A DNA stretch of 64,000 bases from an uncultured Alphaproteobacteria bacterium (GTDB taxonomy: Bacteria > Pseudomonadota > Alphaproteobacteria > Rs-D84). Shown here piece after piece: positions 5,142 through 36,295 of the stretch (the first letter of the stretch is position 1; every line of letters starts with the position of its first letter). The stretch is from positions 74,966 to 138,965 of the forward strand of contig CAMRWN010000001.1 in NCBI GenBank assembly GCA_947054455.1. The letters run 5' to 3'. The position numbers and the translations under genes are program-made. The notes beneath the pieces were generated by a model. The model saw nothing but the letters and a program-made list of their open reading frames with translations, made no database searches and had not been told where the DNA came from.

Positions 5142-5573
5142 TTATTCCTCCACCTTTACGCCCATAGAACGGCACTGACCCGCAACGATGTTCATCGCAG
5201 ATTCAATGGTAGAGCAATTCAAGTCCGGCATTTTCGCTTCCGCGATTTGCTTGATTTGGTCTTTGGAAATTGTTCCAACGAAATCACGACCCGGCTTGTG
5301 TGAACCGATTTTCAACTTCAACGCCTTTTTGATGTAATAGGACACCGGCGGCAGCTTCATGATAAATTCAAAGCTGCGGTCCGTATAAACCGTGATAATG
5401 CACGGAATCGGCATACCCGGTTCCTTGTCAGACGTTTTGTCGTTAAACTGTTTGCAGAATTCGGCGATGTTTACACCCGCCGCACCCAACGCCGGTCCAA
5501 TCGGAGGCGCAGGATTTGCCTGTTTTGCAGGGACGACCAGTTTGACCAGTCCCTTTACTTCTTTTTTTGCCAT
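5142..5573 (-). CDS. rplK: 50S ribosomal protein L11
   Basis: The 143-aa ORF reads [30 protein letters not shown]... and carries the L11 PPIGPALG motif. Confidence 0.95.
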
Positions 5574-5668
5574 TTTTTCACTCCATTTCTTTGGTTAGTG
5601 TCGTGGTACGATGTGGCGCATCCACCACCTGATTTGCGGCTTTTACTAAAACCGCGGAAAACTTTCTG

Positions 5669-6202
5669 TTATACGCGCTCGACCTGTTCAAAGTCCAATT
5701 CAACGCTGGTTTCGCGACCAAATACCAAAATGGTCACGGTCATCTTTTGCTTTATATTATCAACCTCGGACGCGATACCGTTAAAGCCCGCGAACGGCCC
5801 GTCGATAACATGCACTTCCTGTCCTACTTCGTATTCAATATCGTCAGATACTACACTGCCTTCCTCGACCTGCTTTTGCAGACGGCGTGCTTCTTCCTCG
5901 CTGACGGCGATGGGTTTGTTTTTCGCACCCAGGAACATAACCACCTGGGGCATCAGCTTAACCAGCGAAAACGTTTCGTTGTTCAGAACCATCTGAACGA
6001 CGATATAACCCGGGAAAAATTTCTTTTCAGATTTTACGCGCTTGCCGCCCTTGATTTCCGTGATTTCACGCGTCGGCACCAAAATTTCACCAAACAACGC
6101 GTTCAGACGCCGCTTGTCAATCTGTTCACGCAGACCGCGCGCAACCTTGTCTTCGCACCCGGTATGAACATTAACGACGAACCACTGCATTTTGTCTTCC
6201 AT
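5669..6202 (-). CDS. nusG: Transcription termination/antitermination factor NusG
   Basis: A 177-aa ORF with an NGN domain (WFVVNVHTGCEDKV) and a C-terminal KOW region (GQEVHVIDGPFAGFNGI). It is in the conserved position between secE and rplK. Confidence 0.9.
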   Translation of the reverse strand: MEDKMQWFVVNVHTGCEDKVARGLREQIDKRRLNALFGEILVPTREITEIKGGKRVKSEKKFFPGYIVVQMVLNNETFSLVKLMPQVVMFLGAKNKPIAVSEEEARRLQKQVEEGSVVSDDIEYEVGQEVHVIDGPFAGFNGIASEVDNIKQKMTVTILVFGRETSVELDFEQVERV

Positions 6203-6223
6203 TGCGCACTTCCTTTGCCAGTG

Positions 6224-6403
6224 TTAGAAAATCCAACCAACAATCGCGTTCAGCACACTGTCCACAACAAAAAAGAACAGCGCCGCCAAACCTGAAAACA
6301 CCAGAATCATAATCGTTGCACGTACAACACTGTCGCGCGACGGCCATACAATCTTGAACCATTCACTGCGCACCGATTTAATATATTCCAGTATTTTTTT
6401 CAT
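6224..6403 (-). CDS. secE: Preprotein translocase subunit SecE (59 aa, below the ORF-track cutoff)
   Basis: Manual reverse-strand translation gives MKKILEYIKSVRSEWFKIVWPSRDSVVRATIMILVFSGLAALFFFVVDSVLNAIVGWIF*. It has a single TM helix and the SecE signature (EL/V.KV.WPSR), and sits between tRNA-Trp and nusG. Confidence 0.85.
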   Translation of the reverse strand: MKKILEYIKSVRSEWFKIVWPSRDSVVRATIMILVFSGLAALFFFVVDSVLNAIVGWIF

Positions 6404-6455
6404 AAAACTTTATCCAATGTTGCCACTTTCCCTATCTATCCCAGGTTCAGCAATC

Positions 6456-6529
6456 TGGCAGGGGCAGAAGGAATCGAACCCTCATCCGCGGTTTTGGAGA
6501 CCGATATTCTACCGTTGAACTATGCCCCT
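6456..6529 (-). tRNA. trnW: tRNA-Trp (anticodon CCA)
   Basis: The reverse complement is AGGGGCATAGTTCAACGGTAGAATATCGGTCTCCAAAACCGCGGATGAGGGTTCGATTCCTTCTGCCCCTGCCA. It folds as a cloverleaf with anticodon loop CTCCAAA, a GGTTCGATTCC T-arm and a 3' CCA, and is close to E. coli tRNA-Trp. Confidence 0.9.
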
Positions 6530-6667
6530 ACTGTGCAAATTTACCGACCTTGCGTACCGCCGTACCCCGATAGTCTGCGCTAAGATAGCACATCAATACG
6601 AAAAATCAAGCAGAAAGTATTATATGATTTTAATCGCGAATGTGCAAGTAAAAATTCAAGTTATCTT

Positions 6668-6677
6668 TTGTATAATC
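6668..6677 (+). promoter_or_regulatory. Extended -10 promoter element TTGTATAATC upstream of virB8
   Basis: A TGnTATAAT-type extended -10 lies ~78 nt upstream of the virB8 GTG start. It is related to, but not identical with, the TGTGATATAAT motif found elsewhere in the window. Confidence 0.4.
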
Positions 6678-6754
6678 TGTATTTTATGCACTTTTTGCTT
6701 GCGCATGTCCGCCGTTTTTTTCTACAATCGCATTATCACGAGGGGGAGAAAAAC

Positions 6755-7432
6755 GTGCAAAACCGCATAGAACCGCCAATTTTGCTATCCAGACTGCTGA
6801 CATTCACATTTGCCGCGGCCTTGGTTGTGCTGTTCGCGCTGGTCATGACACTGGCAAAAATGTTTCCCCTGAACCGGCCCGAAGTGTTTTTTCTGACGAC
6901 CCAGAATCCCGCAAATCTGGAAATGTATGTCAATGAAATGCCGCCGGACGATGCAAATATGGATAATTACAAGCGCATGTTCATACGCGAATACATCAAG
7001 GCCAGGAACGAGGTTAATCCCGCACCATCGGCCATGGCAAAGAAATGGAACGCGGCCGACGGCGTTGTACGCACATGGTCCGCGACCGACGTGTTCGCCG
7101 ATTTTATGCAAACCGCGCTGTGGACAGACCTGATGACGGACGCACCGGATTTCGATTTTTCCTGTTCGGTGGAGTTCAAACCGGGCGCCATAACAAAATA
7201 TTCGACGGACGGCAGTACATATACCGTAAATTTTGCCTGGTTTTGCACAGATAATTATGGACAGACCGCCAAAAAAGATTATACAATAAAGATAAAGCTG
7301 GCAACAGACGACAACGCCGCGTTAAAATGGGCGGACCGGTTGGAAAATCCGTTGGGGATTCGCGTTGTAGAATATTCGGTCGAATCCGGCAACGGCGACC
7401 CACTGAACGCACTGGGGTCGGCAAGACAATAA
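6755..7432 (+). CDS. virB8: Type IV secretion system VirB8-like protein
   Basis: The ORF runs in frame from 6668, but the best start is the GTG at 6755, preceded by a strong RBS (GAGGGGGAGAAAAAC). The protein is ~225 aa with a short cytoplasmic N-terminus, one TM helix (LLTFTFAAALVVLFALVMTL) and a periplasmic domain that ends in the VirB8-family NPLGxxV signature (ENPLGIRVVEY). It is followed by virB9 and virB10 homologues. Confidence 0.8.
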   Translation: MQNRIEPPILLSRLLTFTFAAALVVLFALVMTLAKMFPLNRPEVFFLTTQNPANLEMYVNEMPPDDANMDNYKRMFIREYIKARNEVNPAPSAMAKKWNAADGVVRTWSATDVFADFMQTALWTDLMTDAPDFDFSCSVEFKPGAITKYSTDGSTYTVNFAWFCTDNYGQTAKKDYTIKIKLATDDNAALKWADRLENPLGIRVVEYSVESGNGDPLNALGSARQ

Positions 7433-7451
7433 CCACACCGAAACGGAAGGA

Positions 7452-8990
7452 ATGGGCATGACGTTTTCAAGAGTGATAAAATTAAATATTTCCGCACTGT
7501 GTCTGGTTGGCACATGCTTTGCCGCAGAACCTGCCATGTTCGGCATTCAAGAGGCGTGGGACAACCCCAACGCCAACATGGCCGCAGGCAGCATAAAGCC
7601 CGGATACGCACAACTGCCGTGGTCCCAGGGCAGTGTTTTGCCAATCAAGCTGCGCAACGGAATGGTTACGATGCTGACCCTGCCCAACGGTGAACAGATT
7701 GCGGACGCCGTCGTCGGTGATTCCGGCAAGTTTGTGATTGATACGACGGTCGGCGACCGCACCATGTTCATTTCGCCAGAGGCATCAAACCAAGGCAGCG
7801 ACACAAACATGATTGTGACGGGCAAATCCGGAAACAAATACATATTCTATCTGCGGGCAGAACCGTCAAATTCCAGCGAAATCACATATTCCCAGGTTGA
7901 CGTCATACTGGACGGGAACGCGGTACTGCCGGGTGCGTCAGCGTCGGCGACCGGCGCCCAGTCAACCGGAAAGATGAGTTCGATATTTAAAAAATCGACG
8001 TCGGGCGCAGCGGGCGTTGTCGGCGTTGACGGCGAAGATTACGGCTGGATAAAATCAATGAAAATCGACCCGTCGGAATTCCGTTTCGATTTGGACATAT
8101 TCGTGCCGAACCCCGACGATTATGTCATCGCGCCGGAACGCGTGTGGCGCGACAGAATATTTACATATATTGATTTCGGGGACAAGGTTATCGCAATGAC
8201 ACAGCGACCGGTGGTTTCACTGTTGGTCGAAGGTGGCGAATCCCCGGTCGGATTCCGCACGGACGGCGAAGACGGCCGCCTGTTGATAGTAGAGGCGGTT
8301 GGCGACATGGTTCTGCGCAGCGGACAGCGCATTGTCTGCATCAAAAAGCGTGAAAAGCCGTTCCTGATTGCCGACACGGCGTCGGTCATGGCCCTGGCAG
8401 AGGCGAATGTCGCCCAATCCATGATGTCCGGACAGTCGCTGAACAATATTGCATACACAATGGACCAGAACGCGATAAACGCGGCCGGGATAAATTATAC
8501 TGGCACGCCTGTGATGATTGGCAACACCGCATCAAGTGCCGGCGCGGGATACTACATGCCGGCGGGATTTTCCACCGCCGCCACATACGGCGCAACACCG
8601 ACGGGCACCCCCGTCATGATGCCGACCGAAAGAATAACGGCGGGTTCATATTTGCCGCAATCAAACATACCGCTGATTACCAGCAACCAATCCGGGGTCG
8701 CGGTGGAACTGAAATCCGATACATCAATCAAGGCACTGGACGAATACTGGGTTGGCCTGCTGGCAAAATTCAGCGGCGAAAACGGTGTGGGCGTGCTGAC
8801 CCCTTACAAGGACATGGTGTTCTTTGCGGTTGACGAACAGGGTGTCGGTGATTTGGGCGCGGGTTCGTCAACGGCGCGCCTGTATCGCCTGCGCATAGGG
8901 CCGATGTCAGATATTGAAACCGCGCAGAAACTGTGCGACCAGCTGTTGAAGTTCAGCGGCGCCAGCTGCAGCGTGGTGCGCATCCAGTAA
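7452..8990 (+). CDS. virB9: Type IV secretion system VirB9/TrbG-like protein with a C-terminal extension carrying a SPOR-like domain
   Basis: It has a signal peptide (ALCLVGTCFAAEP). The N-terminal domain matches the VirB9 pattern (VVGDSGKFVIDTT...TNMIVTGKSGNKYIFYLRA). The VirB9 C-terminal domain is present (IFTYIDFGDKVIAMTQ...LLIVEAVGDMVLRSGQRIVCIKK). An extra ~200 aa of Gly/Ala/Thr-rich sequence then ends in LYRLRIGPMSDIETAQKLCDQLLKFSGASCSVVRI, which resembles the second half of a SPOR peptidoglycan-binding domain. Confidence 0.8.
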   Translation: MGMTFSRVIKLNISALCLVGTCFAAEPAMFGIQEAWDNPNANMAAGSIKPGYAQLPWSQGSVLPIKLRNGMVTMLTLPNGEQIADAVVGDSGKFVIDTTVGDRTMFISPEASNQGSDTNMIVTGKSGNKYIFYLRAEPSNSSEITYSQVDVILDGNAVLPGASASATGAQSTGKMSSIFKKSTSGAAGVVGVDGEDYGWIKSMKIDPSEFRFDLDIFVPNPDDYVIAPERVWRDRIFTYIDFGDKVIAMTQRPVVSLLVEGGESPVGFRTDGEDGRLLIVEAVGDMVLRSGQRIVCIKKREKPFLIADTASVMALAEANVAQSMMSGQSLNNIAYTMDQNAINAAGINYTGTPVMIGNTASSAGAGYYMPAGFSTAATYGATPTGTPVMMPTERITAGSYLPQSNIPLITSNQSGVAVELKSDTSIKALDEYWVGLLAKFSGENGVGVLTPYKDMVFFAVDEQGVGDLGAGSSTARLYRLRIGPMSDIETAQKLCDQLLKFSGASCSVVRIQ

Positions 8991-9014
8991 ACCGACAAAC
9001 GCGGCGGATATGTT

Positions 9015-11384
9015 ATGAACAAAATAAAAATGCAGTTTTCACAGTTGCGCAACACAACGCCAAAGTACGTGCAATGGCTGCTGTTGCTGGCGGCGTTTCT
9101 GGTCGTAATTATATTGTTTACGCTGATGATGACGGGGTCTAAAAAAGCGCCTGTCATTGAAAAGGAATCCACCGCTGTCAAAATAACGGTGTCTGACGAA
9201 AACATAGACTGGGCCGCGACCAAGGTCGGCCAGAAAAAGACGCAGTCGATAAAAATAACCACGACCGCGCCCGCCCGCATCGCCGTCAGACGCACCAAGG
9301 ACATAGACGGATTCAAACCGCTGGATACATGCAACAACATAGGCGAGATAACGCCCCAGTTCCCGTGTACAATAACACTGGAATATGCACCGACGCATGA
9401 AATGCCGGTTCAGGGCGTACCACTCTTTATAGATTGGCGCGGCGCCGACATGCCCGAAAGCATGAACGAAACTATCAAGATTACCGTCGTACTGGGCGCC
9501 AGCGAACCAGAACCTGCGGTAATTGCCGAACCCGTCGTCGAACCGGTACCGGCGGTCATCCCAGAACCAAAGCCTGAGCCGCAGCCGGCCCCCACCCAGA
9601 TTCAGCGCGAGATAGAGGCAATCGCCCCGTCATACGATGAAATATTCGAACCCAAGCCAGCAGCCCAAAAGAAAAAGGAAGTTTTCCAACCGCAGACCCA
9701 GGCCGAGATGACAAAAGAGGCATGCTCGGATTTCGCGTTTCCTGGATACGATACATCCGGCAACCAAATCGGCTGGATAAAGCCGGAGGGCGGTGCATAC
9801 TATTTCCATCCGTTTTCGGACAAAAACTGCGACACACCGACCGGTGTTTACAACCCGGACAACGGAATCATAACCGACATAAAAAACACTGGCAATAAAA
9901 TCGGCACCGATGCGGAACACATCGGTTATACAATGATAAGCGCTGCCGCAATCCCACAGCTGTCAAACGCGCCGTCATCAAAACGTGTAAACCGCGCGGT
10001 ACAGGCGCCAACACCAATCAACAGCACCGGCATGGCCAGAATGAGCAATGATTGGACCACGCTGACACAAAGCATTGTCTCCCCGGCACCGCAAGAAGAT
10101 GTTATTTTCGGAACAACCGGTGATGTGGTTGTTGCCACCGCCCCGTACGACCGCACATTTATTCTGCGCCAGTACAAGCCGATTCCGGCAACAATCGTCT
10201 CTGACGTTCGCGCCGACACCGCGCTGGCGAAGGATAATTTGAAATTCCCCGTACGCGCAACCGTCGACCGCAATGTATATTCCGACAACGGTCGCACAAT
10301 TATCATACCGACGGGAACCCTGCTGATGGGATACGTATCGGGCGATGTGCCGGGCCCCTATAAGGCAATCGGCCGCATGAACATAAAATGGTACCAGTTT
10401 GTTTTGCCCAACGGGGTTGAATTTAATTTCGAAATCGGAGACGAACCGGAATCCGCCGACTCTCAGGGACGCATCGGCGTACCCGGCCGTGGCAGCACGG
10501 ATTACATGGAACAGTTTGTGATGCCGATGCTGACGGCGATTGTACCGGCGGCGGTGAATATGATTGCACCTGTCGCGGACAAGTTTGTAAACCAGATTGA
10601 CCTGGACAACAACACCGTCGTGCAATCCGGCACGCTGCGTTCGTCCGAACTGGCCAAGAACGAAATTATAACCGCATGGAACCAGGTTGCGCAAAAGCTG
10701 ATGGTGGACATGATGGACAACACCGTGCCGCCCTTTACAATCCCTGCCGGCACACGCATAACCGTATACGCCCCGACCGATTTGGCGGTATCATGTACGG
10801 ACTCTACAAAAAAATGCTATATGGAAGACCTGCGCAGCAAAGCGAATAATAAGCGCACGAATCCTAAGTGGAATGCGACCGAGGCAGATGATGATTCCTG
10901 GGTTGGACAGGTACGCTCATTCAATTCGCAACAATATTGCACCCAGGATGCACAAGGTTTATGGACAGCCCAAGAACGTTGCGCGCAATATGGTGTATGT
11001 GGCAACTATTCATACAGAACGTTGCTGCTGTACTGCCAATCGCTGAACTATCAGTCAAAAAACAACGCCCGCCAAGAACAGTTGTTCCAGAACCAGCAAG
11101 ATGCATCAAACAAAAACAGCATCGCCAGCATGGGCGGCGTCGGTTCGACGCAATATAATGAAAATGTCCTGGGATTGCAGTACGCCGACGAAGACAAGAC
11201 GACAATAGTAAATCCGTTCCAAACCCTGCCCAAGGAAGAGGCGCCCGCCGCACTCACATGCATGGACGGTTCCAATCCGGACATGAACGGATGCTGTGCC
11301 GGGGAAATATATACCGACATGGGCGATCAGGGATTCAATTGCTGTCCTGAAACGGGTGGCGACTGTTTCCCGCCGATACTGTAG
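9015..11384 (+). CDS. virB10: Type IV secretion system VirB10/TrbI-like protein (789 aa) with a Pro-rich linker and a Cys-rich C-terminal extension
   Basis: There is an N-terminal TM helix (WLLLLAAFLVVIILFTLMM) followed by a Pro-rich region (EPEPAVIAEPVVEPVPAVIPEPKPEPQPAP). The VirB10/TrbI barrel domain is present (VYSDNGRTIIIPTGTLLMGYVSGDVPG...WYQFVLPNGVEF...GRIGVPGRGSTDYMEQFVMPMLTAIV). About 200 further C-terminal residues contain 14 Cys. Confidence 0.85.
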   Translation: MNKIKMQFSQLRNTTPKYVQWLLLLAAFLVVIILFTLMMTGSKKAPVIEKESTAVKITVSDENIDWAATKVGQKKTQSIKITTTAPARIAVRRTKDIDGFKPLDTCNNIGEITPQFPCTITLEYAPTHEMPVQGVPLFIDWRGADMPESMNETIKITVVLGASEPEPAVIAEPVVEPVPAVIPEPKPEPQPAPTQIQREIEAIAPSYDEIFEPKPAAQKKKEVFQPQTQAEMTKEACSDFAFPGYDTSGNQIGWIKPEGGAYYFHPFSDKNCDTPTGVYNPDNGIITDIKNTGNKIGTDAEHIGYTMISAAAIPQLSNAPSSKRVNRAVQAPTPINSTGMARMSNDWTTLTQSIVSPAPQEDVIFGTTGDVVVATAPYDRTFILRQYKPIPATIVSDVRADTALAKDNLKFPVRATVDRNVYSDNGRTIIIPTGTLLMGYVSGDVPGPYKAIGRMNIKWYQFVLPNGVEFNFEIGDEPESADSQGRIGVPGRGSTDYMEQFVMPMLTAIVPAAVNMIAPVADKFVNQIDLDNNTVVQSGTLRSSELAKNEIITAWNQVAQKLMVDMMDNTVPPFTIPAGTRITVYAPTDLAVSCTDSTKKCYMEDLRSKANNKRTNPKWNATEADDDSWVGQVRSFNSQQYCTQDAQGLWTAQERCAQYGVCGNYSYRTLLLYCQSLNYQSKNNARQEQLFQNQQDASNKNSIASMGGVGSTQYNENVLGLQYADEDKTTIVNPFQTLPKEEAPAALTCMDGSNPDMNGCCAGEIYTDMGDQGFNCCPETGGDCFPPIL

Positions 11385-11407
11385 AAATACACGTCCAGAA
11401 ACAACCA

Positions 11408-11440
11408 AGGCGCGCATACATTGCGCGCTTTCTTTATTAT
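11408..11440 (+). terminator. Rho-independent terminator after virB10
   Basis: A GC hairpin, aaggcgcgca-tacat-tgcgcgcttt, followed by a T-rich tract, lies ~25 nt after the virB10 stop. Confidence 0.6.
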
Positions 11441-11622
11441 CCGGAAAAACAAAATGATAAAAAACCAGATTTTAACCGATTCGCTACAGACGCTATAAAA
11501 CCGCATTTCGATTCGAATTTCCGATTCGCCGTTCAACCGTCGGTTGTACCATTTTACAGACTTCAACTCTTGTTTTATACATCAAAGACATCAACGTCAT
11601 AAAAAACCAAAGGAGAGGACAC

Positions 11623-11964
11623 ATGACACAAACACAATCCGCATGCACACCGGAAAAATTTCAAAATTCGGAACAACTGTGGTTCTGGTTTCTATATTCC
11701 AAATCGGTGCAGTCCGGATTCATACGCACACATGGCAACGCGACGCGACGGCCGTGCGAATTGTTGGACGTTGAAACCCTTATCACTAAATTGTATTTGT
11801 CCGGCGCACTGACGGATGAACAACTGGCCGTTATGAAGCAGTTCGGCGACAGGCGCCGCGCACCGCACCAATACATATGGGCGGAAAATCGGGCGGCCGA
11901 CCTGTGGCGCCGCGCAATGGCGACACTGCAGAACGCCGCAGTCAAACGCGGCTGGATAGAATAG
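11623..11964 (+). CDS. Hypothetical protein (113 aa)
   Basis: An ORF with a strong RBS (AAAGGAGAGG) 7 nt upstream of its ATG. No recognisable family. It lies immediately downstream of the virB8-10 operon terminator. Confidence 0.5.
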   Translation: MTQTQSACTPEKFQNSEQLWFWFLYSKSVQSGFIRTHGNATRRPCELLDVETLITKLYLSGALTDEQLAVMKQFGDRRRAPHQYIWAENRAADLWRRAMATLQNAAVKRGWIE

Positions 11965-12016
11965 CTGGCACGCGCGCCGCCGATACGGGCGGTGCGCACA
12001 AACAACGGAAAATAAC

Positions 12017-12364
12017 ATGATAATAATCGCATTTACAAGTCATACGTCCAAAATACCGCCCCGCATATTCTGCAGACATTTCCGGCACTGCGCGGTCATC
12101 GTTCCCAACGGCGCCGGTGTCCGTTCAATGACGATGCACCAGTTCGTCCGCCGTCGAAATGTTGCGCAAATATCGCTGGCGCCGCGCGACATACGGATAC
12201 TTGGGGCGCACGGATGGCGCTTCATATATCTGGCGTGCGATATCGCGAACGATTTCAATCCGTCGCATGCGCGCACATGTGTGGATTTAAGCAAGCGCGC
12301 CATCGGAATTCACGCGCCGCTGATACAGACGCCGGATGCACTGTACAAATATTTGAAAAAATAA
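12017..12364 (+). CDS. Hypothetical protein (115 aa)
   Basis: An ORF with a weak RBS, followed directly by a bidirectional terminator. No family recognised. Confidence 0.4.
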   Translation: MIIIAFTSHTSKIPPRIFCRHFRHCAVIVPNGAGVRSMTMHQFVRRRNVAQISLAPRDIRILGAHGWRFIYLACDIANDFNPSHARTCVDLSKRAIGIHAPLIQTPDALYKYLKK

Positions 12365-12392
12365 ATCCGCCCCGTTTGGGGCGGATTTTTAC
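12365..12392. terminator. Bidirectional rho-independent terminator between the hypothetical ORF and yidC
   Basis: The sequence aaatccgcccc-gttt-ggggcggattttt is a perfect hairpin flanked by A and T runs on both sides. Confidence 0.75.
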
Positions 12393-12396
12393 ATCG

Positions 12397-13962
12397 TTAT
12401 TTCTGCATGCGACGCTTTATGATATACATCTGCGCGATTCCGAACAGATTGGAAACGGTCCAGTACAAAACCAGTCCCGCCGGCATCCACGCAAACAGAA
12501 CCGTAAACAGCACCGGCATCCATCGCATGGCCTTTTGCGTCTGCGCCAGCGCATCGCCGGTCGCACCCTTGTTCGACGCAGACTGCAAATACTGCTGCAG
12601 CCACATTGTCAGTCCCATCAGCACGGGCATGATGAAATACGGATCCATTGCCGCCAAATCCGATATCCACAGGAAATGCGCGTTGCGCATCTGCACGGAA
12701 ATCAGCAGCGCCTTGTACAACGCAAAGAAAATCGGAATCTGAATCAGCATCGGCAGACATCCCGACATCGGCGACGTCTTGTGTGTCTGGTACAGACGCA
12801 TGATTTCAACCTGCATGCGCGTCTTGTCGTTGGCATAGAGCTTTTGAATGCGCGCCATTTCCGGCTGCATCTTCTGCATCGCTATCATTGATGTGTATGA
12901 TTTGCGCGTCAGCGGCCACAGCAGCATGCGCAGCAAAATTGTCAGAATGATAATCGCAATGCCATAGTTCATCACGATTGCATTAATCGCGTTCAGCAAC
13001 CACAACATCGGACGCGCCAAAAACCAGAACCAGCCGTAATCCATCGTCTGATTTGCGCCGGCAATCAGTTTTGACGCCGCCCCCAGCGCATCACGTTCGC
13101 GCGGTCCGGCATACAGGTGCGTGGTTATGCGTGCTGTTGCGCCCGGCGCCACGGAAACGGCCGCCGCAGATGCGTCCGTCTGATAACGCGCGCCCTGCTT
13201 TTGCGCACGGATTGTCTGGTCAGGGCTGTCTATTGCAACCAGCGTTTCCCAGTATTGGTCGGCAAATCCCGTAAAGCCCTGCCCGGTTGTGTATGCCCGC
13301 GGCTTCTTATCCAAATCGCGCCAGTCGTCATGTTCCACATCGCCGTTGGCGTATGCGACCAGCCCAGTGTACACACCGGCCGATGCACGCGCGTCGGCAG
13401 GGCGCACAATGCGCGCATACGGCGCGAACGCGAAATCTTTTTTGGCGTTGTTTTTTATCTCGTCTATGACGGTTATGACATATCCGTCCGCAGACACTGT
13501 GCGCGTAAACAGCACGCCGTCAGAATTGCGCCATGTCTGCGCACCATTGGACGCACGCCATACTGTTTCGGCGGTCGGCGCCGCAGTTCCGCGCGCCACC
13601 ATGCCGATTTCCGCGAACGCATCTTCATCCGGCAACAGGCGCATCGGCGCATCCCCGTCGGCTTCGCGCTTGAAATCCTTTAAATCTATGTCGGATATAC
13701 GCAGACCGCGAACGCGGGCGGTTATCTTCTCGCCGTCCAATTCGGATACCGGAACGGCCGAAACGTCCGCCTCTATGACAGGCGCGGGCGTATTGGACGC
13801 ATCATGCTTTTTCGGCGCGACAAACGTACCAACCAGCCACCATGCCGCCACAAACAGCACGAACCACCACAACATACCTGAAAAACGCGATTTTCCGGCA
13901 CCAGATTGCTGACGTGCATTCCATTGATTGAATCCGGAGTTTTTATCCAAAAATTTTACCAT
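12397..13962 (-). CDS. yidC: Membrane protein insertase YidC
   Basis: A 521-aa ORF with a large periplasmic domain and the conserved C-terminal 60-kDa inner-membrane insertase region (LLWPLTRKSYTSMIAMQKMQPEMARIQKLY...GCLPMLIQIPIFFALYKAL...). Confidence 0.9.
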   Translation of the reverse strand: MVKFLDKNSGFNQWNARQQSGAGKSRFSGMLWWFVLFVAAWWLVGTFVAPKKHDASNTPAPVIEADVSAVPVSELDGEKITARVRGLRISDIDLKDFKREADGDAPMRLLPDEDAFAEIGMVARGTAAPTAETVWRASNGAQTWRNSDGVLFTRTVSADGYVITVIDEIKNNAKKDFAFAPYARIVRPADARASAGVYTGLVAYANGDVEHDDWRDLDKKPRAYTTGQGFTGFADQYWETLVAIDSPDQTIRAQKQGARYQTDASAAAVSVAPGATARITTHLYAGPRERDALGAASKLIAGANQTMDYGWFWFLARPMLWLLNAINAIVMNYGIAIIILTILLRMLLWPLTRKSYTSMIAMQKMQPEMARIQKLYANDKTRMQVEIMRLYQTHKTSPMSGCLPMLIQIPIFFALYKALLISVQMRNAHFLWISDLAAMDPYFIMPVLMGLTMWLQQYLQSASNKGATGDALAQTQKAMRWMPVLFTVLFAWMPAGLVLYWTVSNLFGIAQMYIIKRRMQK

Positions 13963-17776: not shown

Positions 17777-18946
17777 CTAATGAAATATATAGCTGTCGAT
17801 GCCGGCCGCCGCCGCCGCGGATTTCAATTTTCCGGCCGCCGCATCCGACAGATTGTTTACACGCACGCGGTGCATGCCGGTTCCGGTGTCTTCGACGACC
17901 GGCGAAACCCCCAGTTTGTTTTTTACATTCCGCACCTGGTTTTGCGCGGCTGCGCGCGATGAAAACGCCCCGAACTGCACACCGGCATGGCCCGCCTTCA
18001 ACGCGGGCGCGGTGGCGGCCGATACCGGCGCGGCGCCCGTTGCTGCGTTATATGCCGCAGAAAATGTCCACGGCGGCGTGCTTGATACCGGTGCGGCGAC
18101 AGGCGCGGATGATGTCTGACGCGAAACGGGCGCCGCCTTTTCCCCCAGCATTTTAAATCCGCGGTTCAGCATCTGTGCCGCAATATTGGCACGAACATCC
18201 TTGTTCTCGGCCCCCAGCACGACCGCCAAAACACGCGAATTCCCGCGGTGCGCGGTCGCAACCAAAGAATATTTTGATTTGTTGGTGAATCCGGTTTTCA
18301 TCCCGTCGCATCCCGCGTACATCCCCAGCAAACGGTTTCCGTTTGTATATGTTTTGCCGTTGTATGTCCACGACTTTATCCCGAAATATTTCCAGTACTG
18401 CGGAAAATGCTTATACACCGCCATAGACATCAGCGCGATATCACGCGCCGTCGACAGGTGGTCGTCATCAGGCAATCCGGACGAGTTTTCAAAATTTGTC
18501 TGCGACAGTCCGATTTCAGATGCAACGCGCGTCATCAAGGTTGCAAAATTCCCTTCCTTGCCGCCCTTTAAATTTTCCGCCAACACGCGCGCCACATCGT
18601 TGGCACTGTGTACGGCGACCGCCTTAATCGCGTCTTCGACGGTGATTTTACTGCCCGCGGGCAGCCCCAGTTTCACCGGCGACGCATTCGCCGCCGTCTG
18701 CGACACAATCAGATAATCATCCAAATGCAGGCGTCCATGTTCCAGCGCATCAAACGTCAGATACAGCGTCATGATTTTCGTCAGGCTGGCGGGATAATTC
18801 AAATCACCCGCATTTTCAGAATACAAAACGCGTCCTGAATCCATATCCGCAACCAGCGCCGCGCGATACTGCGCCCCATGCGCCGCAATTGCGGGCATCG
18901 CCACCGCGGCCAGCGCGGCAAAAAAAACATTTCGAATATTCATCAA
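17777..18946 (-). CDS. dacA: D-alanyl-D-alanine carboxypeptidase (PBP5/6 family) fused to a C-terminal SPOR domain
   Basis: It has a signal peptide, the SxxK active site (ASLTKIMT), the SGN and KTG motifs, and a C-terminal SPOR-like segment (GVQFGAFSSRAAAQNQVRNV...GMHRVRVNNLSDAAAGKLKSAAAAAG). Confidence 0.85.
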   Translation of the reverse strand: MMNIRNVFFAALAAVAMPAIAAHGAQYRAALVADMDSGRVLYSENAGDLNYPASLTKIMTLYLTFDALEHGRLHLDDYLIVSQTAANASPVKLGLPAGSKITVEDAIKAVAVHSANDVARVLAENLKGGKEGNFATLMTRVASEIGLSQTNFENSSGLPDDDHLSTARDIALMSMAVYKHFPQYWKYFGIKSWTYNGKTYTNGNRLLGMYAGCDGMKTGFTNKSKYSLVATAHRGNSRVLAVVLGAENKDVRANIAAQMLNRGFKMLGEKAAPVSRQTSSAPVAAPVSSTPPWTFSAAYNAATGAAPVSAATAPALKAGHAGVQFGAFSSRAAAQNQVRNVKNKLGVSPVVEDTGTGMHRVRVNNLSDAAAGKLKSAAAAAGIDSYIFH

Positions 18947-21064: not shown

Positions 21065-23002
21065 ATGCGGAATTGGTTGCAAAATAACATCGGGGACGCC
21101 TTTGTGTTCGCACCGTTTATAATTGCGGGCGGGGCCGCGCTGTATTTCACATGCGGCGCCGAACCCGGCATACCAATGTGGGCCGCAGGCGCGGCGATTG
21201 CGGCATCTATCATGATGCTGCAAAAAACACAAATTATTACGCGGGCAATCGCACTGTTTGCATTCGGATTTTTCTATGCCATGGTCTATACGAATGCAGT
21301 CGACACGCCGCTGATGACCCGAAACATGCGCGACGCCGCATTGGACGCAACGGTTGAAAACATAGATTACACACCCGACAAACACAGAATTTATCTGCAG
21401 GTCGATGCATCCGACATAAATGCCGGCGACGGTCGTGCAATCGTGCGTGTTTCCGCGCCAGGGGATTCGACGCCACCGCAAATCGGCGACAAAATCCGTG
21501 CAAACGTCGGCTTGTTTCGTCCCGCGCCCGCGGATGCACCCGGCGCGTTCGACTATGCACGCTGGGCATATTTCAACAAACTGTCCGCGACTGGATACAT
21601 GGACGAATACACAGTACTGGCCGACAACGGCGGCGGTGGAATAAATTCCGTGCGAAAGTTTCTGCATGAAAAGGCCAATTCCCACCTGACAGACGGGCTG
21701 GTGCTGGGATATAAAAACATCCTGACCCAGGACGAGCGGCAATATTGGACCACCGCCGGCATCGGACACGTCTGGTCAATCAGCGGATTTCACATGACAC
21801 TGGTGGCGGGATGGCTGTTTGCAATATTCTATATGATATTCAGATGCATTCCACGCATCACCCGTGCATATCCGGCGCGCATTCCAGCGATGTTCGCCGC
21901 ATGGTGCGGACTGGTCGGGTACCTGATGATTTCGGGCGTGGGCGTCGCGACGGTGCGCGCATTTCTGATGACAAGCCTGATGTTCGCGGCGGTGGCCCTG
22001 GGGCGCAGCGCGATTTCAATGCGAAACATATGCATTGCGTTCTGCATTATATTTCTGATTAATCCGCACAATGTCATGCAGGCCGGATTCCAGTTGTCTT
22101 TCGCCGCGATTTTCGGTCTGATTTGGTTTTGGGGCGTTGTGCGTCCTAAAATGCCGCGTGGCAGAATATCAAAAATTATTTTCACAGCGGTGATGACATC
22201 GCTGGTGGCGACAATATTCACAACGCCGTTCGTCGCCGCGCACTTTCACACCATACCGACATACGGGCTGATTGGCAATCTGACGCTGCTGCCTATATTT
22301 TCCCTGTTGATAATGCCGCTGGTTATGGTGGGGACGTTTGCGGCCGCGATCGGAATTCATGCCCCGCTGGAATTGGCGCATTGGATTTATGATTTTGCAC
22401 TGCTGGGCGCGCGGCAAATATCGGCGCTGCCGATGGCTGAAATAATAACACCGCATATTCCAGGTATCGCACTGGTCATTATGACGGCCGGACTGGTTGG
22501 ACTGATGTTTATCAAGCCCGGCAGATATAAAATCAACGTTATTATATGCAGCCTGGCCATGGCCGCCGGATGCACGATGACGGCATTGGCGCCGCGTCCG
22601 ATGTTTTTCGCAACAAGCGACCACGAACTGGTCGCGTTCGCGAACGATGATGCAATCGAGTTCAACAAGGCGCGCGCATCAAATCACTATTTTACATTCG
22701 ACACATGGAAGCAGATGCTGGGGCTGCCCGCCGGCACCAAAAATATTCGCCGCGCACACGACCGGGGCGTGTACGATTTCAAGACGCAGAACTTTCACTT
22801 GGTATACATTCAAAAATTCGTGCCGCTGATGCGCAACATTGAAAAACTGTGCCATGACCCGGACATTGATTACATAGTGTCATATTTTGATATTCAATCG
22901 CCGTCATGCGGGGACAAAATTCTGCGCGGCGGATTTGTAATCGACCCGTCGGGTCGTGTCAGAAACGCGCAGCTTAATCGTCGCTGGCATAATCACAGCT
23001 GA
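21065..23002 (+). CDS. comEC: ComEC/Rec2 family DNA internalisation channel protein; no C-terminal metallo-beta-lactamase domain evident
   Basis: A 645-aa ORF with an N-terminal DUF4131-like region and the polytopic competence domain (HVWSISGFHMTLVAGWLF, VRAFLMTSLMFAAVALGRS, QLSFAAIFGLIWFW). Confidence 0.8.
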   Translation: MRNWLQNNIGDAFVFAPFIIAGGAALYFTCGAEPGIPMWAAGAAIAASIMMLQKTQIITRAIALFAFGFFYAMVYTNAVDTPLMTRNMRDAALDATVENIDYTPDKHRIYLQVDASDINAGDGRAIVRVSAPGDSTPPQIGDKIRANVGLFRPAPADAPGAFDYARWAYFNKLSATGYMDEYTVLADNGGGGINSVRKFLHEKANSHLTDGLVLGYKNILTQDERQYWTTAGIGHVWSISGFHMTLVAGWLFAIFYMIFRCIPRITRAYPARIPAMFAAWCGLVGYLMISGVGVATVRAFLMTSLMFAAVALGRSAISMRNICIAFCIIFLINPHNVMQAGFQLSFAAIFGLIWFWGVVRPKMPRGRISKIIFTAVMTSLVATIFTTPFVAAHFHTIPTYGLIGNLTLLPIFSLLIMPLVMVGTFAAAIGIHAPLELAHWIYDFALLGARQISALPMAEIITPHIPGIALVIMTAGLVGLMFIKPGRYKINVIICSLAMAAGCTMTALAPRPMFFATSDHELVAFANDDAIEFNKARASNHYFTFDTWKQMLGLPAGTKNIRRAHDRGVYDFKTQNFHLVYIQKFVPLMRNIEKLCHDPDIDYIVSYFDIQSPSCGDKILRGGFVIDPSGRVRNAQLNRRWHNHS

Positions 23003-33297: not shown

Positions 33298-33371
33298 TGG
33301 GGTGTCGTCTAATGGTAGGACAAGAGATTTTGGTTCTCTTTATCATGGTTCGAATCCGTGCGCCCCAACCA
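33298..33371 (+). tRNA. trnQ: tRNA-Gln (anticodon UUG)
   Basis: The sequence is TGGGGTGTCGTCTAATGGTAGGACAAGAGATTTTGGTTCTCTTTATCATGGTTCGAATCCGTGCGCCCCAACCA. It has a 7-bp acceptor stem, anticodon loop ATTTTGG(T), a GGTTCGAATCC T-arm and an encoded CCA. Confidence 0.85.
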
Positions 33372-33383: not shown

Positions 33384-33410
33384 ATGCCCCAGACGGGGCA
33401 TTTATTTTGA
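33384..33410 (+). terminator. Rho-independent terminator after tRNA-Gln
   Basis: The hairpin aaatgcccc-agac-ggggcattt is followed by a T-run. Confidence 0.65.
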
Positions 33411-33636
33411 AATGATGTATCGCGCGGATTGTAATCGTCCGTTTCACACGATTACAGCAAAACGTTATTAACGTTTTGTACGCGTTTTGTTCCAAAACGC
33501 TAGTGGGGCCATCCCCACACCCCTGTGTGCGCCCCAACCAGGATAAACAAAGTCAGCACACAGGCGACTTTTTCTTTGGTTTTCCAGTGTTTGATTTCGG
33601 AAAATAGCAATTTTTTTGAACTTTCGAACTTTTTTA

Positions 33637-33645
33637 TGATAAAAT
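33637..33645 (+). promoter_or_regulatory. Extended -10 element TGATAAAAT placed 9 nt upstream of the protease ATG (leaderless-type architecture)
   Basis: TATGATAAAAT-gcacatgaa-ATG. No -35 match. The architecture parallels the TGTGATATAAT promoters found elsewhere in the window. Confidence 0.4.
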
Positions 33646-33654
33646 GCACATGAA

Positions 33655-34581: not shown

Positions 34582-34601
34582 CAAAATTTAAGGAGCGCAC
34601 A

Positions 34602-34955
34602 ATGAAACAAAAAACAGATAAGATAAAAAACTTGAAACGCGCTGGTACGATAATTGCAATCGCGGGCAGTTTGGCACTGGGTAGCGTGTCAATTTCACGC
34701 ACCACCAAAGACGACTCCACAGATCCTACAGAAAACAAGGAATATATTAAACACTTGGAACATGTTGCGGATGAAATGACACATGAGCAAAAACTGCAAT
34801 TTATTCACGATGGAAAAGAAGTATTGAATAATCTGCAACAGAAAATTGATTCTGATGAAACCAATCCCGAAGAACGCTTTGAGGCATTAAGATCAAAACG
34901 TTTGGTTAATAAGGAAATTGAAGTAATGCAGAAAAAGTTGAATAACGGAAGATAG
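34602..34955 (+). CDS. Hypothetical small secreted or membrane-anchored protein (117 aa)
   Basis: A good RBS (AAGGAG) lies 7 nt before the ATG. The N-terminal hydrophobic segment is TIIAIAGSLALGSVSIS. The gene is AT-rich and followed by a terminator hairpin at ~34984..35010. Confidence 0.5.
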   Translation: MKQKTDKIKNLKRAGTIIAIAGSLALGSVSISRTTKDDSTDPTENKEYIKHLEHVADEMTHEQKLQFIHDGKEVLNNLQQKIDSDETNPEERFEALRSKRLVNKEIEVMQKKLNNGR

Positions 34956-35029
34956 ATATCGGCAGAATATTCTACTAATACAAAGTCGCATCTAATGGTG
35001 CGATTTTTATATTCAGATTGCATACGAGC

Positions 35030-35974: not shown

Positions 35975-35982
35975 GATGATGA

Positions 35983-35995
35983 ATTATATCACAAC
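35983..35995 (-). promoter_or_regulatory. TTGTGATATAATT extended -10 promoter motif; 9 nt separate TATAAT from the ATG of the 35030..35974 gene
   Basis: This is an exact copy of the 11-mer TGTGATATAAT, read on the minus strand. Confidence 0.55.
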
Positions 35996-36295
35996 ATCTA
36001 AATACAATCTATAATAAATAACATAGGTTAGCTGTTGTCCTATGTTTTTAATATATCTATAACTTGCTCGATTTCCGGTGCCATTTTTATCAAATCATTA
36101 TAATAATTAGTTCAAAGATTGTTTATCACGCACAACCAAAAACACCCCGCGGGGTGTTTTTATTTATTTACACTTTCGAGCTGCGTGGTTGTGGTCGGCC
36201 AGCATGATGCATTGATTTTTATTTAGCAGAAACTATATATATGGTATAATTTATTGGATATTTGATTTTATTGTAAAAATAACAGAGTAGCGCTT

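What the first reader, a model, noticed from the sequence alone, without database searches (positions are those of the whole stretch)
6755..11384. Stand-alone virB8-virB9-virB10 operon embedded next to the secE-nusG ribosomal cluster, without virB11/virD4
Three translationally adjacent genes carry clear family signatures: VirB8 (NPLGIRV), VirB9 (both domains) and VirB10 (TrbI barrel). They sit between tRNA-Trp/secE/nusG and two hypothetical genes, yidC and lspA, and a strong terminator follows virB10. In Agrobacterium-type and Rickettsia rvh operons virB11 and virD4 follow virB10. Here they do not, so the ATPase genes must lie elsewhere, or the system uses a different energising module. The two small hypothetical genes that follow (11623..11964 and 12017..12364) are candidates for accessory components or substrates.
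Basis: partly seen in the sequence, partly recalled or inferred. Interest (0 to 1): 0.6.

Follow-up and report, generated by a model that had tools for sequence, protein, structure and literature searches.

The report
Conserved ATPase-less VirB8-9-10 secretion operon
A small-genome, uncultured gut bacterium (Candidatus Enterousia) keeps a highly conserved three-gene operon for the envelope-spanning scaffold of a type IV secretion machine among its housekeeping genes, with no motor (ATPase) genes nearby; this points to a contact-dependent or DNA-uptake lifestyle, but whether the motors exist elsewhere in the genome could not be tested here.

Summary
Window 6755-11384 holds three tightly spaced genes matching VirB8, VirB9/CagX and VirB10/TrbI (Pfam E 3e-11 to 3e-22), followed by a hairpin terminator. 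The window comes from Ca. Enterousia (order Rs-D84), gut Alphaproteobacteria with genomes of about 0.75-1.0 Mb. The module sits at the same core-genome site (nusG | B8-B9-B10-orfA-orfB | yidC) in all 80 species examined. VirB9 is as conserved as RecR (77% identity), so this is not a mobile element or a relic. No VirB2-7, VirB11 or VirD4 homolog lies in the 64-kb window or within 10 kb of the operon in any species.

The proteins carry unusual parts. VirB9 has a SPOR-like peptidoglycan-binding C-terminus. VirB10 has a PapD-like Ig domain, an extra beta-domain and a tail with 10 invariant Cys. More distant relatives of this VirB9 subfamily sit in complete clusters with VirB4 and VirB11, arranged like Rickettsia rvh, or in conjugative clusters.

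The most likely reading is one islet of a dispersed chromosomal T4SS. A ComB-like DNA-uptake role and a truly ATPase-less complex remain open. The decisive whole-genome VirB4 search could not be run. The small downstream genes are real, but nothing links them to the operon.

The parts
6755..7432 (+). virB8-like gene (225 aa). Bitopic protein with an N-terminal TM helix at aa 7-40 and a periplasmic VirB8 domain carrying the NPLGIRV motif.
   Evidence: Pfam PF04335 E 2.8e-11. GTG start with RBS GAGGGGGAG. TM prediction. The same 225-aa gene is called in other assemblies. Mean identity across 80 species is 54%.
7452..8990 (+). virB9-like gene (512 aa; 510 aa from the ATG at 7458). It has a signal peptide, the VirB9/CagX N- and C-domains (aa 54-299, nt 7611-8348), an invariant linker, and a SPOR-like C-terminal domain (aa ~415-512, nt 8694-8987).
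   Evidence: Pfam CagX E 3.1e-22 and SPOR E 1.4e-4 (22.5 bits against a cut-off of 21). SPOR is also precomputed on several homologs and on an outgroup. Mean identity is 77% across 80 species. The linker and C-terminus are near-invariant.
9015..11384 (+). virB10-like gene (789 aa). It has a TM helix at aa 15-45, a PapD-like/ASH Ig domain at aa 55-165 (nt 9177-9509), a Pro-rich spacer at aa ~166-235, a conserved small beta-domain at aa 237-316 (nt 9723-9962), and a TrbI barrel at aa 385-590 (nt 10167-10784). The barrel contains two long antenna-like helices at aa 497-528 and 544-568. A Cys-rich tail at aa 591-789 (nt 10785-11381) has 10 invariant Cys and ends in an invariant NCCPETGGDCFPPIL.
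   Evidence: Pfam TrbI E 2.8e-19 and ASH E 4.7e-5. NCBIfam VirB10 3e-17 and ComB10 1.7e-12, both below cut-off. PDB sequence hits to CagY and ComB10. Conservation pattern. AF2 model. Foldseek matches the barrel to CagY, TrwE and Xanthomonas VirB10, and the Ig domain to HYDIN/CEP192 PapD-like domains.
11407..11431 (+). Intrinsic-terminator-like hairpin that closes the operon (10-bp stem, 6 GC pairs, T-rich tail).
   Evidence: An equivalent hairpin is present in 79% of 78 species, with different stem sequences. Mean MFE is -18.1 against -8.7 kcal/mol for shuffles.
11623..11964 (+). orfA, a conserved 113-aa cytoplasmic protein of unknown fold with its own RBS (AAAGGAGAGG). It is a neighbour of the operon; a functional link is not shown.
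   Evidence: Present in 74 of 80 loci at 72% mean identity. 35 invariant residues. No hit in Pfam, NCBIfam, PHROGs or PDB. Called as a gene elsewhere.
12017..12364 (+). orfB, a conserved ~115-aa protein with invariant Cys19, His24 and Cys88. It is missed by some gene callers. It is a neighbour of the operon; a functional link is not shown.
   Evidence: Found in 71 of 80 loci at 50% identity. Invariant residues. Codon-position substitution rates are 0.43/0.31/0.61, and it is the only open frame in 70 of 70 regions. Not called in L103. No family hits.

Best explanation
The three genes are a functional, vertically inherited operon for the envelope-spanning scaffold of a type IV secretion system, fixed in the core genome of Ca. 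Enterousia.

Proposed mechanism:
- VirB10-like is anchored in the inner membrane by one TM helix. It crosses the periplasm through a Pro-rich spacer, and its C-terminal barrel with a helical antenna forms the outer-membrane pore.
- VirB9-like is exported and forms the outer-membrane-associated ring with VirB10. Its SPOR-like C-terminus ties the ring to peptidoglycan. This may take over the stabilising role of the VirB7 lipoprotein, for which no gene is seen next to virB8.
- VirB8-like is the bitopic inner-membrane assembly factor.

The operon is most likely one islet of a dispersed chromosomal T4SS, organised like the scattered rvh system of Rickettsia. VirB4, and possibly other inner-membrane parts, would be encoded elsewhere on the ~0.9-Mb chromosome. 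The machine would serve exchange with a partner cell, either effector or macromolecule transfer or DNA uptake, in a bacterium that lacks most biosynthesis and standard transporters.

Shown here: the gene identities, protein topologies, extra domains, clade-wide fixation and constraint, the operon boundary, and the local absence of ATPases. Inferred: the existence of distant ATPase genes, the role of the SPOR domain, and the transported substrate.
For: - Family and topology.
- Organism and lifestyle: (264 species-level genomes carry a relative; one closed chromosome of 958,618 bp). PMC12306168: genomes of 0.75-1.0 Mb, no TCA cycle or respiration, no standard transporters, partner-dependent lifestyle proposed.
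- Fixation and constraint: the order nusG|B8-B9-B10-orfA-orfB|yidC is identical in about 80 species, with VirB9 at 77% identity, comparable to RecR at 77% and RsmA at 75%. Both large proteins are conserved end to end.
- Self-contained transcription unit.
- Relatives of the same VirB9 subfamily (only 471 clusters in 1.84 billion proteins) sit in complete chromosomal clusters ordered VirB2x2-VirB4-unknowns-VirB8-small ORF-VirB8-VirB9(SPOR)-giant VirB10-VirB11 (L087, L095, L100, L101, L090, L091). Others sit in conjugative clusters (L081-83, L099). The module therefore descends from a full T4SS.
- Rickettsia sets a precedent for a conserved T4SS split into islets in a reduced genome (PMC2653234).
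- VirB8 is an inner-membrane part. Keeping it under selection makes most sense if an inner-membrane complex exists.
- Weak hint: a conserved array of five polytopic paralogs at 46954-53527, whose model gives TrwI/VirB6 chains as its top PDB fold hits.
Against: - No VirB4, VirB11, VirD4 or VirB2/3/5/6/7 homolog was found in the 64-kb window, in L084, or within 10 kb of the operon in 80 species, even with query proteins from the nearest T4SS family.
- At least two other lineages also show ATPase-less B8-B9-B10 modules (L088/89, L102; probably L086). The stripped state is therefore recurrent and could be the functional end state.
- The only genomic study of the lineage available here mentions no secretion system.
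- The VirB6 fold hint is marginal (E 0.014, TM 0.3-0.4) and gets no support from profile comparisons.
- The VirB10 barrel and antenna are modelled at low confidence (pLDDT 40-58).
Confidence: 0.6

Rival explanations
1. ComB-like DNA-uptake machine. The B8-B9-B10 scaffold, together with a VirB4 encoded elsewhere but with no VirB11 or VirD4 at all, imports environmental double-stranded DNA across the outer membrane. It hands the DNA to ComEC for transport into the cytoplasm, as in Helicobacter pylori. In this reduced bacterium the imported DNA would serve nucleotide scavenging or transformation. This is a functional sub-variant of the best explanation, not an exclusive alternative.
For: - ComB consists of VirB2-4 and VirB6-10 homologs, lacks VirB11, VirD4 and VirB5, and partners with ComEC (PMC12857230).
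- ComEC lies 9.7 kb downstream of virB10 at 21065-23002. A ComF-like ORF lies at 62923-63669 (identified from its sequence, not profile-tested).
- In outgroup L090 the VirB8-9-10-11 genes lie between a ComM-like gene and gltX/ComEC.
- The closest solved relatives of VirB10 by sequence include ComB10, and NCBIfam ComB10 scores E 1.7e-12.
- The paper reports no type IV pili for Rs-D84 and very limited biosynthesis.
Against: - The related complete clusters keep VirB11, which ComB lacks.
- The ComB10 equivalog score is far below its cut-off (47 against 300 bits), and the generic VirB10 model scores better.
- comEC, comF and comM are widespread in Alphaproteobacteria that are not known to use a T4SS for uptake (my own knowledge). 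ComEC is not near the module in L086, L087 or L088.
- No ComB4 has been seen.
Confidence: 0.25
2. Autonomous ATPase-less envelope complex. Enterousia genomes encode no VirB4, VirB11 or VirD4. The B8-B9-B10 proteins have been exapted into a peptidoglycan-anchored trans-envelope channel or tether. It would be energised differently, for example by a TonB-like response of VirB10 to the membrane potential, or not energised at all.
For: - No ATPase was found in any examined neighbourhood.
- The stripped module recurs in several lineages at different chromosomal sites.
- The proteins gained lineage-specific, invariant additions (SPOR-like domain, PapD-like domain, Cys-rich tail) that suggest a new function.
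- The published genome analysis mentions no T4SS.
Against: - VirB4 is the only ubiquitous T4SS protein (PMC4027160), and to my knowledge no VirB4-less derivative is known.
- Only about 7% of the genome was inspected.
- Dispersed T4SS genes are the norm in reduced Alphaproteobacteria (PMC2653234).
- Retention of VirB8 points to an inner-membrane partner complex.
Confidence: 0.15
3. Decaying remnant of an integrated conjugative (Trb/VirB) element, with no current function.
For: The nearest annotated relatives of VirB9 are on conjugative or mobilizable replicons with MobA/MobL relaxases.
Against: - The ORFs are intact in 80 of 80 species. VirB9 is 77% identical across them, as constrained as housekeeping genes, and conserved end to end.
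- GC matches the flanks.
- There is no relaxase, integrase or repeat boundary.
- The site is fixed and is bounded upstream by tRNA-Trp/secE, with no att-like duplication noticed.
Confidence: 0.02

Closest known systems
Rickettsiales vir homolog (rvh) T4SS (Gillespie et al. 2009, PMC2653234)
   Same: - A chromosomal, vertically inherited P-type T4SS kept under constraint in a reduced alphaproteobacterial genome.
- Genes are split into separate islets among housekeeping genes.
- More distant relatives of the Enterousia VirB9 show the order VirB8 - small ORF - VirB8 - VirB9 - VirB10 - VirB11, with VirB4 followed by several unknown genes. From my own knowledge, this resembles the rvh islets.
- A five-member tandem array of polytopic paralogs in the window loosely parallels RvhB6a-e.
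   Different: - In rvh, virB11 and virD4 follow virB10; here they do not.
- The window shows no duplicated VirB8 or VirB9.
- VirB9 carries a SPOR-like domain. VirB10 carries a PapD-like domain and a Cys-rich tail.
- The paralogs have no TrbL/VirB6 sequence signature.
- The organism is a gut lumen or associated bacterium of order Rs-D84, not Rickettsiales.
- The ATPases have not been located.
Helicobacter pylori ComB DNA-uptake T4SS
   Same: - Works without VirB11, VirD4 and VirB5, and cooperates with ComEC (PMC12857230).
- ComEC is present in the window.
- ComB10 and CagY are the nearest solved VirB10 relatives by sequence.
   Different: - ComB has ComB4 (VirB4), ComB2/3, ComB6 and the ComB7 lipoprotein. 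None of these was seen here.
- The equivalog score is far below its cut-off.
- Related complete clusters retain VirB11.
Conjugative VirB/Trb-type T4SS of alphaproteobacterial plasmids (Erythrobacter aureus NZ_CP031358, Sphingosinicella p1, Microvirga pMVF16-3)
   Same: These carry the closest annotated VirB9 relatives (31-38% identity over the two VirB9 domains, E down to 6e-51). They also have longer-than-usual VirB9 proteins (430-550 aa).
   Different: - They are complete clusters with a MobA/MobL relaxase, VirB2-B4, VirB11 and VirD4, on large extrachromosomal replicons.
- Pfam detects no SPOR domain on the two of these VirB9 proteins that were scanned.
- The Enterousia module has no transfer genes and sits at a fixed chromosomal site.
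Cag T4SS outer-membrane core (CagX/CagY)
   Same: The barrel of VirB10-like aligns best to CagY in both sequence and fold. Relatives of the Enterousia system have giant CagY-like VirB10 proteins of 1507-2717 aa.
   Different: The Enterousia VirB10 is only 789 aa. There is no cag island, no CagT/Cag3/CagM and no adjacent ATPase.

Membership tests
Type IV secretion system (Gram-negative, VirB-type) | VirB10/TrbI barrel protein with an N-terminal inner-membrane anchor and a Pro-rich spacer | tested here: met
   PF03743 E 2.8e-19. TM helix at aa 15-45. TonB-like Pro-rich hit at aa 162-217. Foldseek matches to CagY, TrwE and Xanthomonas VirB10.
Type IV secretion system (Gram-negative, VirB-type) | VirB9 with both N- and C-terminal domains and a signal peptide | tested here: met
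   PF03524 E 3.1e-22 over profile positions 5-197 of 198. The signal-like N-terminus is visible in the sequence.
Type IV secretion system (Gram-negative, VirB-type) | VirB8, a bitopic NTF2-like assembly factor | tested here: met
   PF04335 E 2.8e-11, above the cut-off. TM helix at aa 7-40.
Type IV secretion system (Gram-negative, VirB-type) | VirB4 ATPase, the only ubiquitous T4SS protein (PMC4027160) | tested here: inconclusive
   Absent from the 64-kb window and from within 10 kb of the operon in 80 species. The rest of the genome could not be searched.
Type IV secretion system (Gram-negative, VirB-type) | VirB7 lipoprotein partner of VirB9 in the outer-membrane core complex (PMC12857230) | tested here: not met
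   No homolog of the small ORFs at the VirB7 position of two nearest plasmid clusters (Ery_B7, Mic_B7) was found in the window or the 80 loci. Only 225 nt separate tRNA-Trp from virB8, whereas relatives have an ORF of 54-71 aa beside virB8. A VirB7-like gene elsewhere in the genome is not excluded.
Rickettsiales rvh-type T4SS | virB8-virB9-virB10 followed by virB11 and virD4 in the same islet | tested here: not met
   virB10 is followed by a terminator, orfA, orfB and yidC in about 80 species.
Rickettsiales rvh-type T4SS | Duplicated components (VirB4, VirB8, VirB9, five VirB6) scattered in islets | tested here: inconclusive
   The window has a single VirB8 and a single VirB9. Five polytopic paralogs lie at 46954-53527, and the model of one (par3) gives TrwI/VirB6 chains as its top fold hits, but there is no TrbL sequence or profile signal.
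ComB DNA-uptake T4SS | Membership of the ComB10 equivalog family | tested here: not met
   NF038092 scores 47 bits against a cut-off of 300.
ComB DNA-uptake T4SS | ComB4 (VirB4) as sole ATPase, with VirB11 and VirD4 absent genome-wide, and a ComEC partner | tested here: inconclusive
   ComEC is present. Genome-wide presence or absence of ComB4, VirB11 and VirD4 could not be tested.
Conjugative element (ICE/plasmid Trb or VirB) | Relaxase, coupling protein, integrase or att boundaries, and patchy distribution | tested here: not met
   None of these lie in the window or flanks. The module sits at a fixed site in 80 of 80 species, and GC matches the flanks.

The most novel reading that the evidence does not exclude
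Ca. Enterousia, and at least two other lineages with stripped B8-B9-B10 modules, have lost every T4SS ATPase. They retain VirB8, VirB9 and VirB10 as an autonomous, peptidoglycan-anchored trans-envelope complex. This would be the first T4SS-derived machine without VirB4. It might act as a passive or PMF-gated conduit, or as a cell-cell junction through which a metabolically dependent bacterium exchanges material with its partner.
Probability: 0.15. Interest if true: 0.85.

Novelty: new variant of a known kind. Interest (0 to 1): 0.5.

Why it matters
Ca. Enterousia (order Rs-D84) is widespread in human, mouse, ruminant, horse and chicken guts. Its genome is about 0.9 Mb and lacks respiration, most biosynthesis and standard transporters. 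The one genomic study available here proposes a partner-dependent lifestyle but names no machinery for it.

A T4SS scaffold that is as conserved as housekeeping genes and fixed in the core genome is the first concrete candidate for that machinery. It turns "how does this bacterium obtain what it needs?" into testable questions: which ATPases does it have, what is the partner, and what is the substrate?

The analysis also defines a narrow, undescribed VirB9-SPOR subfamily of T4SS. This subfamily ranges from conjugative clusters, through rvh-like chromosomal clusters with giant VirB10 proteins, to stripped three-gene modules. That series is useful for studying how secretion machines are reduced and repurposed. 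If VirB4 is really absent, this would overturn the rule that VirB4 defines every T4SS.

Tried and rejected
1. Misassembly hiding virB11/virD4. Rejected: the same junctions occur in 80 species and in independent assemblies.

2. Integrated conjugative element or relic. Rejected on conservation, the fixed site and the lack of transfer genes.

3. Sequence-level test of the five tandem membrane paralogs as VirB6. A profile search against the PDB, Pfam, hhalign against canonical VirB6 with controls, and hmmsearch/phmmer against the unknown genes of related clusters were all negative. Only a marginal Foldseek hit remains. The protein at the VirB6 position of the nearest plasmid clusters turned out to be soluble, so that comparison was dropped.

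4. orfA and orfB function. There were no hits in Pfam, NCBIfam, PHROGs, or the PDB with ortholog profiles.

5. VirB4 in the clade through a metagenome scan.

6. Supplements of the Enterousia paper for KEGG T4SS entries: none are held. The earlier Enterousia paper is not held.

8. The look-up of encoding contigs for the window's own VirB10 protein found nothing on record.

9. An Rfam scan of 5500-13000 found only tRNA-Trp.


Full report
**1. Observation check**

The window has three tightly spaced plus-strand ORFs at 6755-7432, 7452-8990 and 9015-11384. They match Pfam VirB8 (E 2.8e-11), CagX/VirB9 (E 3.1e-22, nearly the whole profile, so both VirB9 domains) and TrbI/VirB10 (E 2.8e-19). All three scores are above the gathering cut-offs. 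All three are far below the NCBIfam equivalog cut-offs, so these are divergent family members.

virB8 starts at the GTG at 6755, behind a GAGGGGGAG ribosome-binding site. Other assemblies of the same species call the same 225-, 510-, 789- and 113-aa genes. Upstream on the minus strand lie tRNA-Trp, secE, nusG, rplK, rplA and rplJ. Downstream lie yidC, lspA and a kefB-like gene. A GC-rich hairpin with a T-rich tail sits at 11407-11431.

**2. Organism and fixation**

Full-length homologs number in the hundreds, and all come from uncultured gut Alphaproteobacteria. A scan of one genome per species found 264 genomes with a VirB9 relative. The best 80 are labelled Alphaproteobacteria bacterium, Candidatus Enterousia or similar, from human, mouse, ruminant, horse and chicken gut. 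One is a closed circular chromosome of 958,618 bp.

PMC12306168 places Enterousia in GTDB order Rs-D84. It describes genomes of 0.75-1.0 Mb without a TCA cycle, respiration, flagella or standard transporters, and proposes a partner-dependent lifestyle. It mentions no secretion system. Other literature searches found no description of a T4SS in this lineage.

The order nusG(-) | B8 B9 B10 orfA orfB (+) | yidC lspA kefB rsmA recR dacC (-) is essentially invariant in the 80 loci. Mean identities to the window proteins are:

| Protein | Mean identity |
|---|---|
| VirB8 | 54% |
| VirB9 | 77% |
| VirB10 | 54% |
| orfA | 72% |
| orfB | 50% |
| YidC | 63% |
| RecR | 77% |

. GC content matches the flanks. 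The module is therefore core-genome, vertically inherited and strongly constrained. It is not a mobile element, a relic or an assembly artefact.

**3. Anatomy**

- **VirB8-like** is bitopic, with a TM helix at aa 7-40.
- **VirB9-like** has a signal peptide and the two VirB9 domains (aa 54-299). These are followed by an invariant linker and a C-terminal domain (aa ~415-512) that hits Pfam SPOR just above its cut-off (22.5 against 21 bits). SPOR is also recorded on several homologs and on an outgroup. The whole C-terminal region is near-invariant.
- **VirB10-like** (789 aa) has a TM helix at aa 15-45 and a beta-sandwich at aa 55-165. The sandwich is confidently modelled (pLDDT 70-86) and matches PapD-like/ASH domains (HYDIN, CEP192; TM 0.55-0.69). 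A Pro-rich spacer follows, then an invariant small beta-domain at aa 237-316 (pLDDT ~80). The TrbI barrel spans aa 385-590 and matches CagY, TrwE and Xanthomonas VirB10. It contains two long helices in the position of the outer-membrane antenna, though this part of the model is low-confidence. The 200-aa tail has ten invariant Cys and an invariant C-terminus, NCCPETGGDCFPPIL.
- By sequence, the nearest solved relatives of VirB10-like are CagY and ComB10. VirB9-like has no solved relative by sequence.

**4. Operon boundary and the two small genes**

An intrinsic-terminator-like hairpin follows the virB10 stop codon in 79% of 78 species. The stem sequences differ between species. Mean MFE is -18.1 kcal/mol, against -8.7 for shuffled sequence. 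orfA starts 225-454 nt further on and has its own strong RBS.

orfA has 35 invariant residues. orfB is not called by some pipelines, but it evolves as a coding sequence. Its substitution rates by codon position are 0.43/0.31/0.61, and it is the only open frame in 70 of 70 orthologous regions. Cys19, His24 and Cys88 are invariant.

Neither protein has a signal peptide, a TM segment or any hit in Pfam, NCBIfam, PHROGs or the PDB, even with ortholog profiles. The whole region is collinear in the clade, and the closest outgroup has an unrelated secreted 135-aa protein after virB10. Adjacency alone is therefore not evidence that orfA or orfB belong to the system.

**5. The missing parts**

Pfam scans and ORF inspection of the rest of the window found only housekeeping or unknown genes. 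These include an RND pump with MFP and TolC, MarR, GyrA, UvrD, ComEC and RmuC.

The nearest annotated relatives of VirB9 (31-38% identity) are on large replicons of Erythrobacter, Sphingosinicella and Microvirga. There they sit in complete clusters of MobA/MobL relaxase, VirB2-B3-B4 and further genes, then B8-B9-B10-B11-VirD4. I searched with all of those proteins by tblastn against the window plus the 80 loci. Only B8, B9 and B10 matched.

So no T4SS ATPase, pilin, VirB3, VirB5, VirB6 or VirB7 is encoded in the 64 kb or within 10 kb of the operon in any species. That covers only about 7% of a genome. It is not a valid test of absence.

**6. Evolutionary context**

An exhaustive search of 1.84 billion representative proteins found only 471 clusters related to this VirB9, of which 85 scored E <= 1e-30. 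This is a narrow subfamily. Their gene neighbourhoods fall into three states.

- **(i) Conjugative clusters** with relaxase or VirD4: L081-83 and L099.
- **(ii) Chromosomal complete clusters.** The order is two VirB2 pilins, VirB4, several unknown single-TM proteins, VirB8, a 54-71 aa ORF, VirB8, VirB9 (430-577 aa, SPOR faint), a giant VirB10 of 1507-2717 aa, then VirB11, with no VirD4 beside it. Examples are L087, L095, L100, L101, L090 and L091. From my own knowledge, this order resembles the rvh islets. The paper read here documents 18 rvh genes scattered in five islets, with duplicated VirB4/6/8/9 (PMC2653234).
- **(iii) Stripped chromosomal modules** with no ATPase after VirB10. These are Enterousia itself; its closest outgroup L088/L089, which has rpsB-tsf-B8-B9-B10 (the representative search lists this VirB9 at 51% identity, BLASTP gives 42% over the full length); L102; and probably L086.

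The Enterousia operon therefore descends from a full T4SS, and the stripped state has arisen or persisted in several lineages.

**7. The paralog array (outside the finding's coordinates)**

Window 46954-53527 holds five tandem polytopic paralogs of 406-476 aa with 5-7 TM segments each. The family is conserved clade-wide at 64-72% identity, has no Pfam domain, and sits among housekeeping genes in another species.

An AF2 model of one paralog (pLDDT 64, pTM 0.60) has the TrwI/VirB6 chains of the R388 T4SS stalk as its top PDB matches. Foldseek probability is 0.99, while every unrelated hit is at or below 0.15. However, the E-value is only 0.014 and the TM-scores are 0.3-0.4.

Profile comparisons with canonical VirB6, and with the unknown genes of related clusters, are negative and no better than controls. 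This is a lead, not a result. Rickettsia has five RvhB6 paralogs whose VirB6 domains average 413 aa.

**8. Interpretation**

The best-supported reading (confidence about 0.6) is one islet of a dispersed chromosomal T4SS. VirB10 would span both membranes and form the outer-membrane pore. VirB9 would form the ring, anchored to peptidoglycan by its SPOR-like domain. This could compensate for the missing VirB7 lipoprotein gene. VirB8 would nucleate assembly at the inner membrane. VirB4, and possibly other parts, would be encoded elsewhere.

The function would be exchange with a partner cell. A ComB-like DNA-uptake role is a serious functional variant (about 0.25). ComB works without VirB11 or VirD4 and hands DNA to ComEC (PMC12857230). 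ComEC lies 9.7 kb from the operon. In outgroup L090 the T4SS genes lie between a ComM-like gene and ComEC. Against this, related clusters keep VirB11, and competence genes are common in Alphaproteobacteria.

The most novel reading not excluded (about 0.15) is that no VirB4 exists and the three proteins act as an autonomous trans-envelope complex. VirB4 is regarded as the only ubiquitous T4SS protein (PMC4027160), so this would be a categorical novelty. The evidence for it is only local absence.

**9. Verdict**

- The finding is best filed as a new variant of a known kind: a divergent VirB9-SPOR-type T4SS scaffold operon fixed in the core genome of a reduced gut alphaproteobacterium.
- Interest is moderate (0.5). 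Split T4SS operons, and systems lacking VirD4 or VirB11, are known. The lineage, the degree of conservation, the domain additions and the unresolved ATPase question make it worth the cheap decisive test, which is profile searches on the closed genome OZ007020.1.

Noticed in passing
window 46954-53527 (plus 46376-46885): Five tandem polytopic membrane paralogs of 406-476 aa (one on the minus strand, four on the plus strand), preceded by a conserved 169-aa ORF. The family is conserved across the clade at 64-72% identity and has no Pfam domain. The AF2 model of one paralog gives TrwI/VirB6 chains of the R388 T4SS as its top PDB fold hits (E 0.014, probability 0.99, TM 0.3-0.4). All sequence and profile tests against VirB6 are negative.
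   Followed up: partly
window 56388-58619 (-): A secreted 743-aa protein with 34 cysteines and no family hit. The ORF at the corresponding position in another Enterousia species is 1204 aa (L084). The clade seems to have a Cys-rich exported proteome, and the VirB10 tail is also Cys-rich.
   Followed up: no
window ~33400-37900: A low-GC island (40% against ~52%) bounded by tRNA-Gln (33298-33371) and tRNA-Glu (37838-37912). It encodes a secreted trypsin-like peptidase (33655-34581) and several small unknown proteins with signal-like N-termini. It is probably a variable or acquired region.
   Followed up: no
window 21065-23002 (+) and 62923-63669 (-); L090 7164-21015: ComEC (DUF4131 + Competence domains) lies 9.7 kb downstream of virB10, and a ComF-like ORF lies near the window's end. 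In a distant relative (L090), VirB8-9-10-11 sits between a ComM-like Mg-chelatase-family gene and gltX/ComEC.
   Followed up: partly
window 12017-12364 (+): orfB is not called as a gene in other assemblies of the same species. It is clearly coding, by its codon-position substitution pattern and because it is the only open frame in 70 of 70 species. Invariant Cys19, His24 and Cys88 suggest a small enzyme or a metal-binding protein.
   Followed up: yes
L087 11611-19764; L100 11608-19569; L101 4115-10939; L090 11563-16086; L091 6649-11535: Related chromosomal T4SS clusters in uncultured low-GC bacteria (35-46% GC) encode giant CagY-like VirB10 proteins of 1507-2717 aa, with the TrbI barrel at the extreme C-terminus. 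Some also carry duplicated VirB8 genes separated by an ORF of 54-71 aa.
   Followed up: partly
window 17777-18946 (-): The D-Ala-D-Ala carboxypeptidase (DacC-like) also carries a C-terminal SPOR domain (E 3.6e-8). SPOR-mediated targeting to peptidoglycan is therefore used by at least two envelope proteins in this small genome.
   Followed up: no
window 42717-44231 (+): An ORF whose translation shows a repeated 'IPxxLFxGxxGxP...F' motif, reminiscent of leucine-rich-repeat surface proteins. It was seen only in the translation and was not profile-tested.
   Followed up: no
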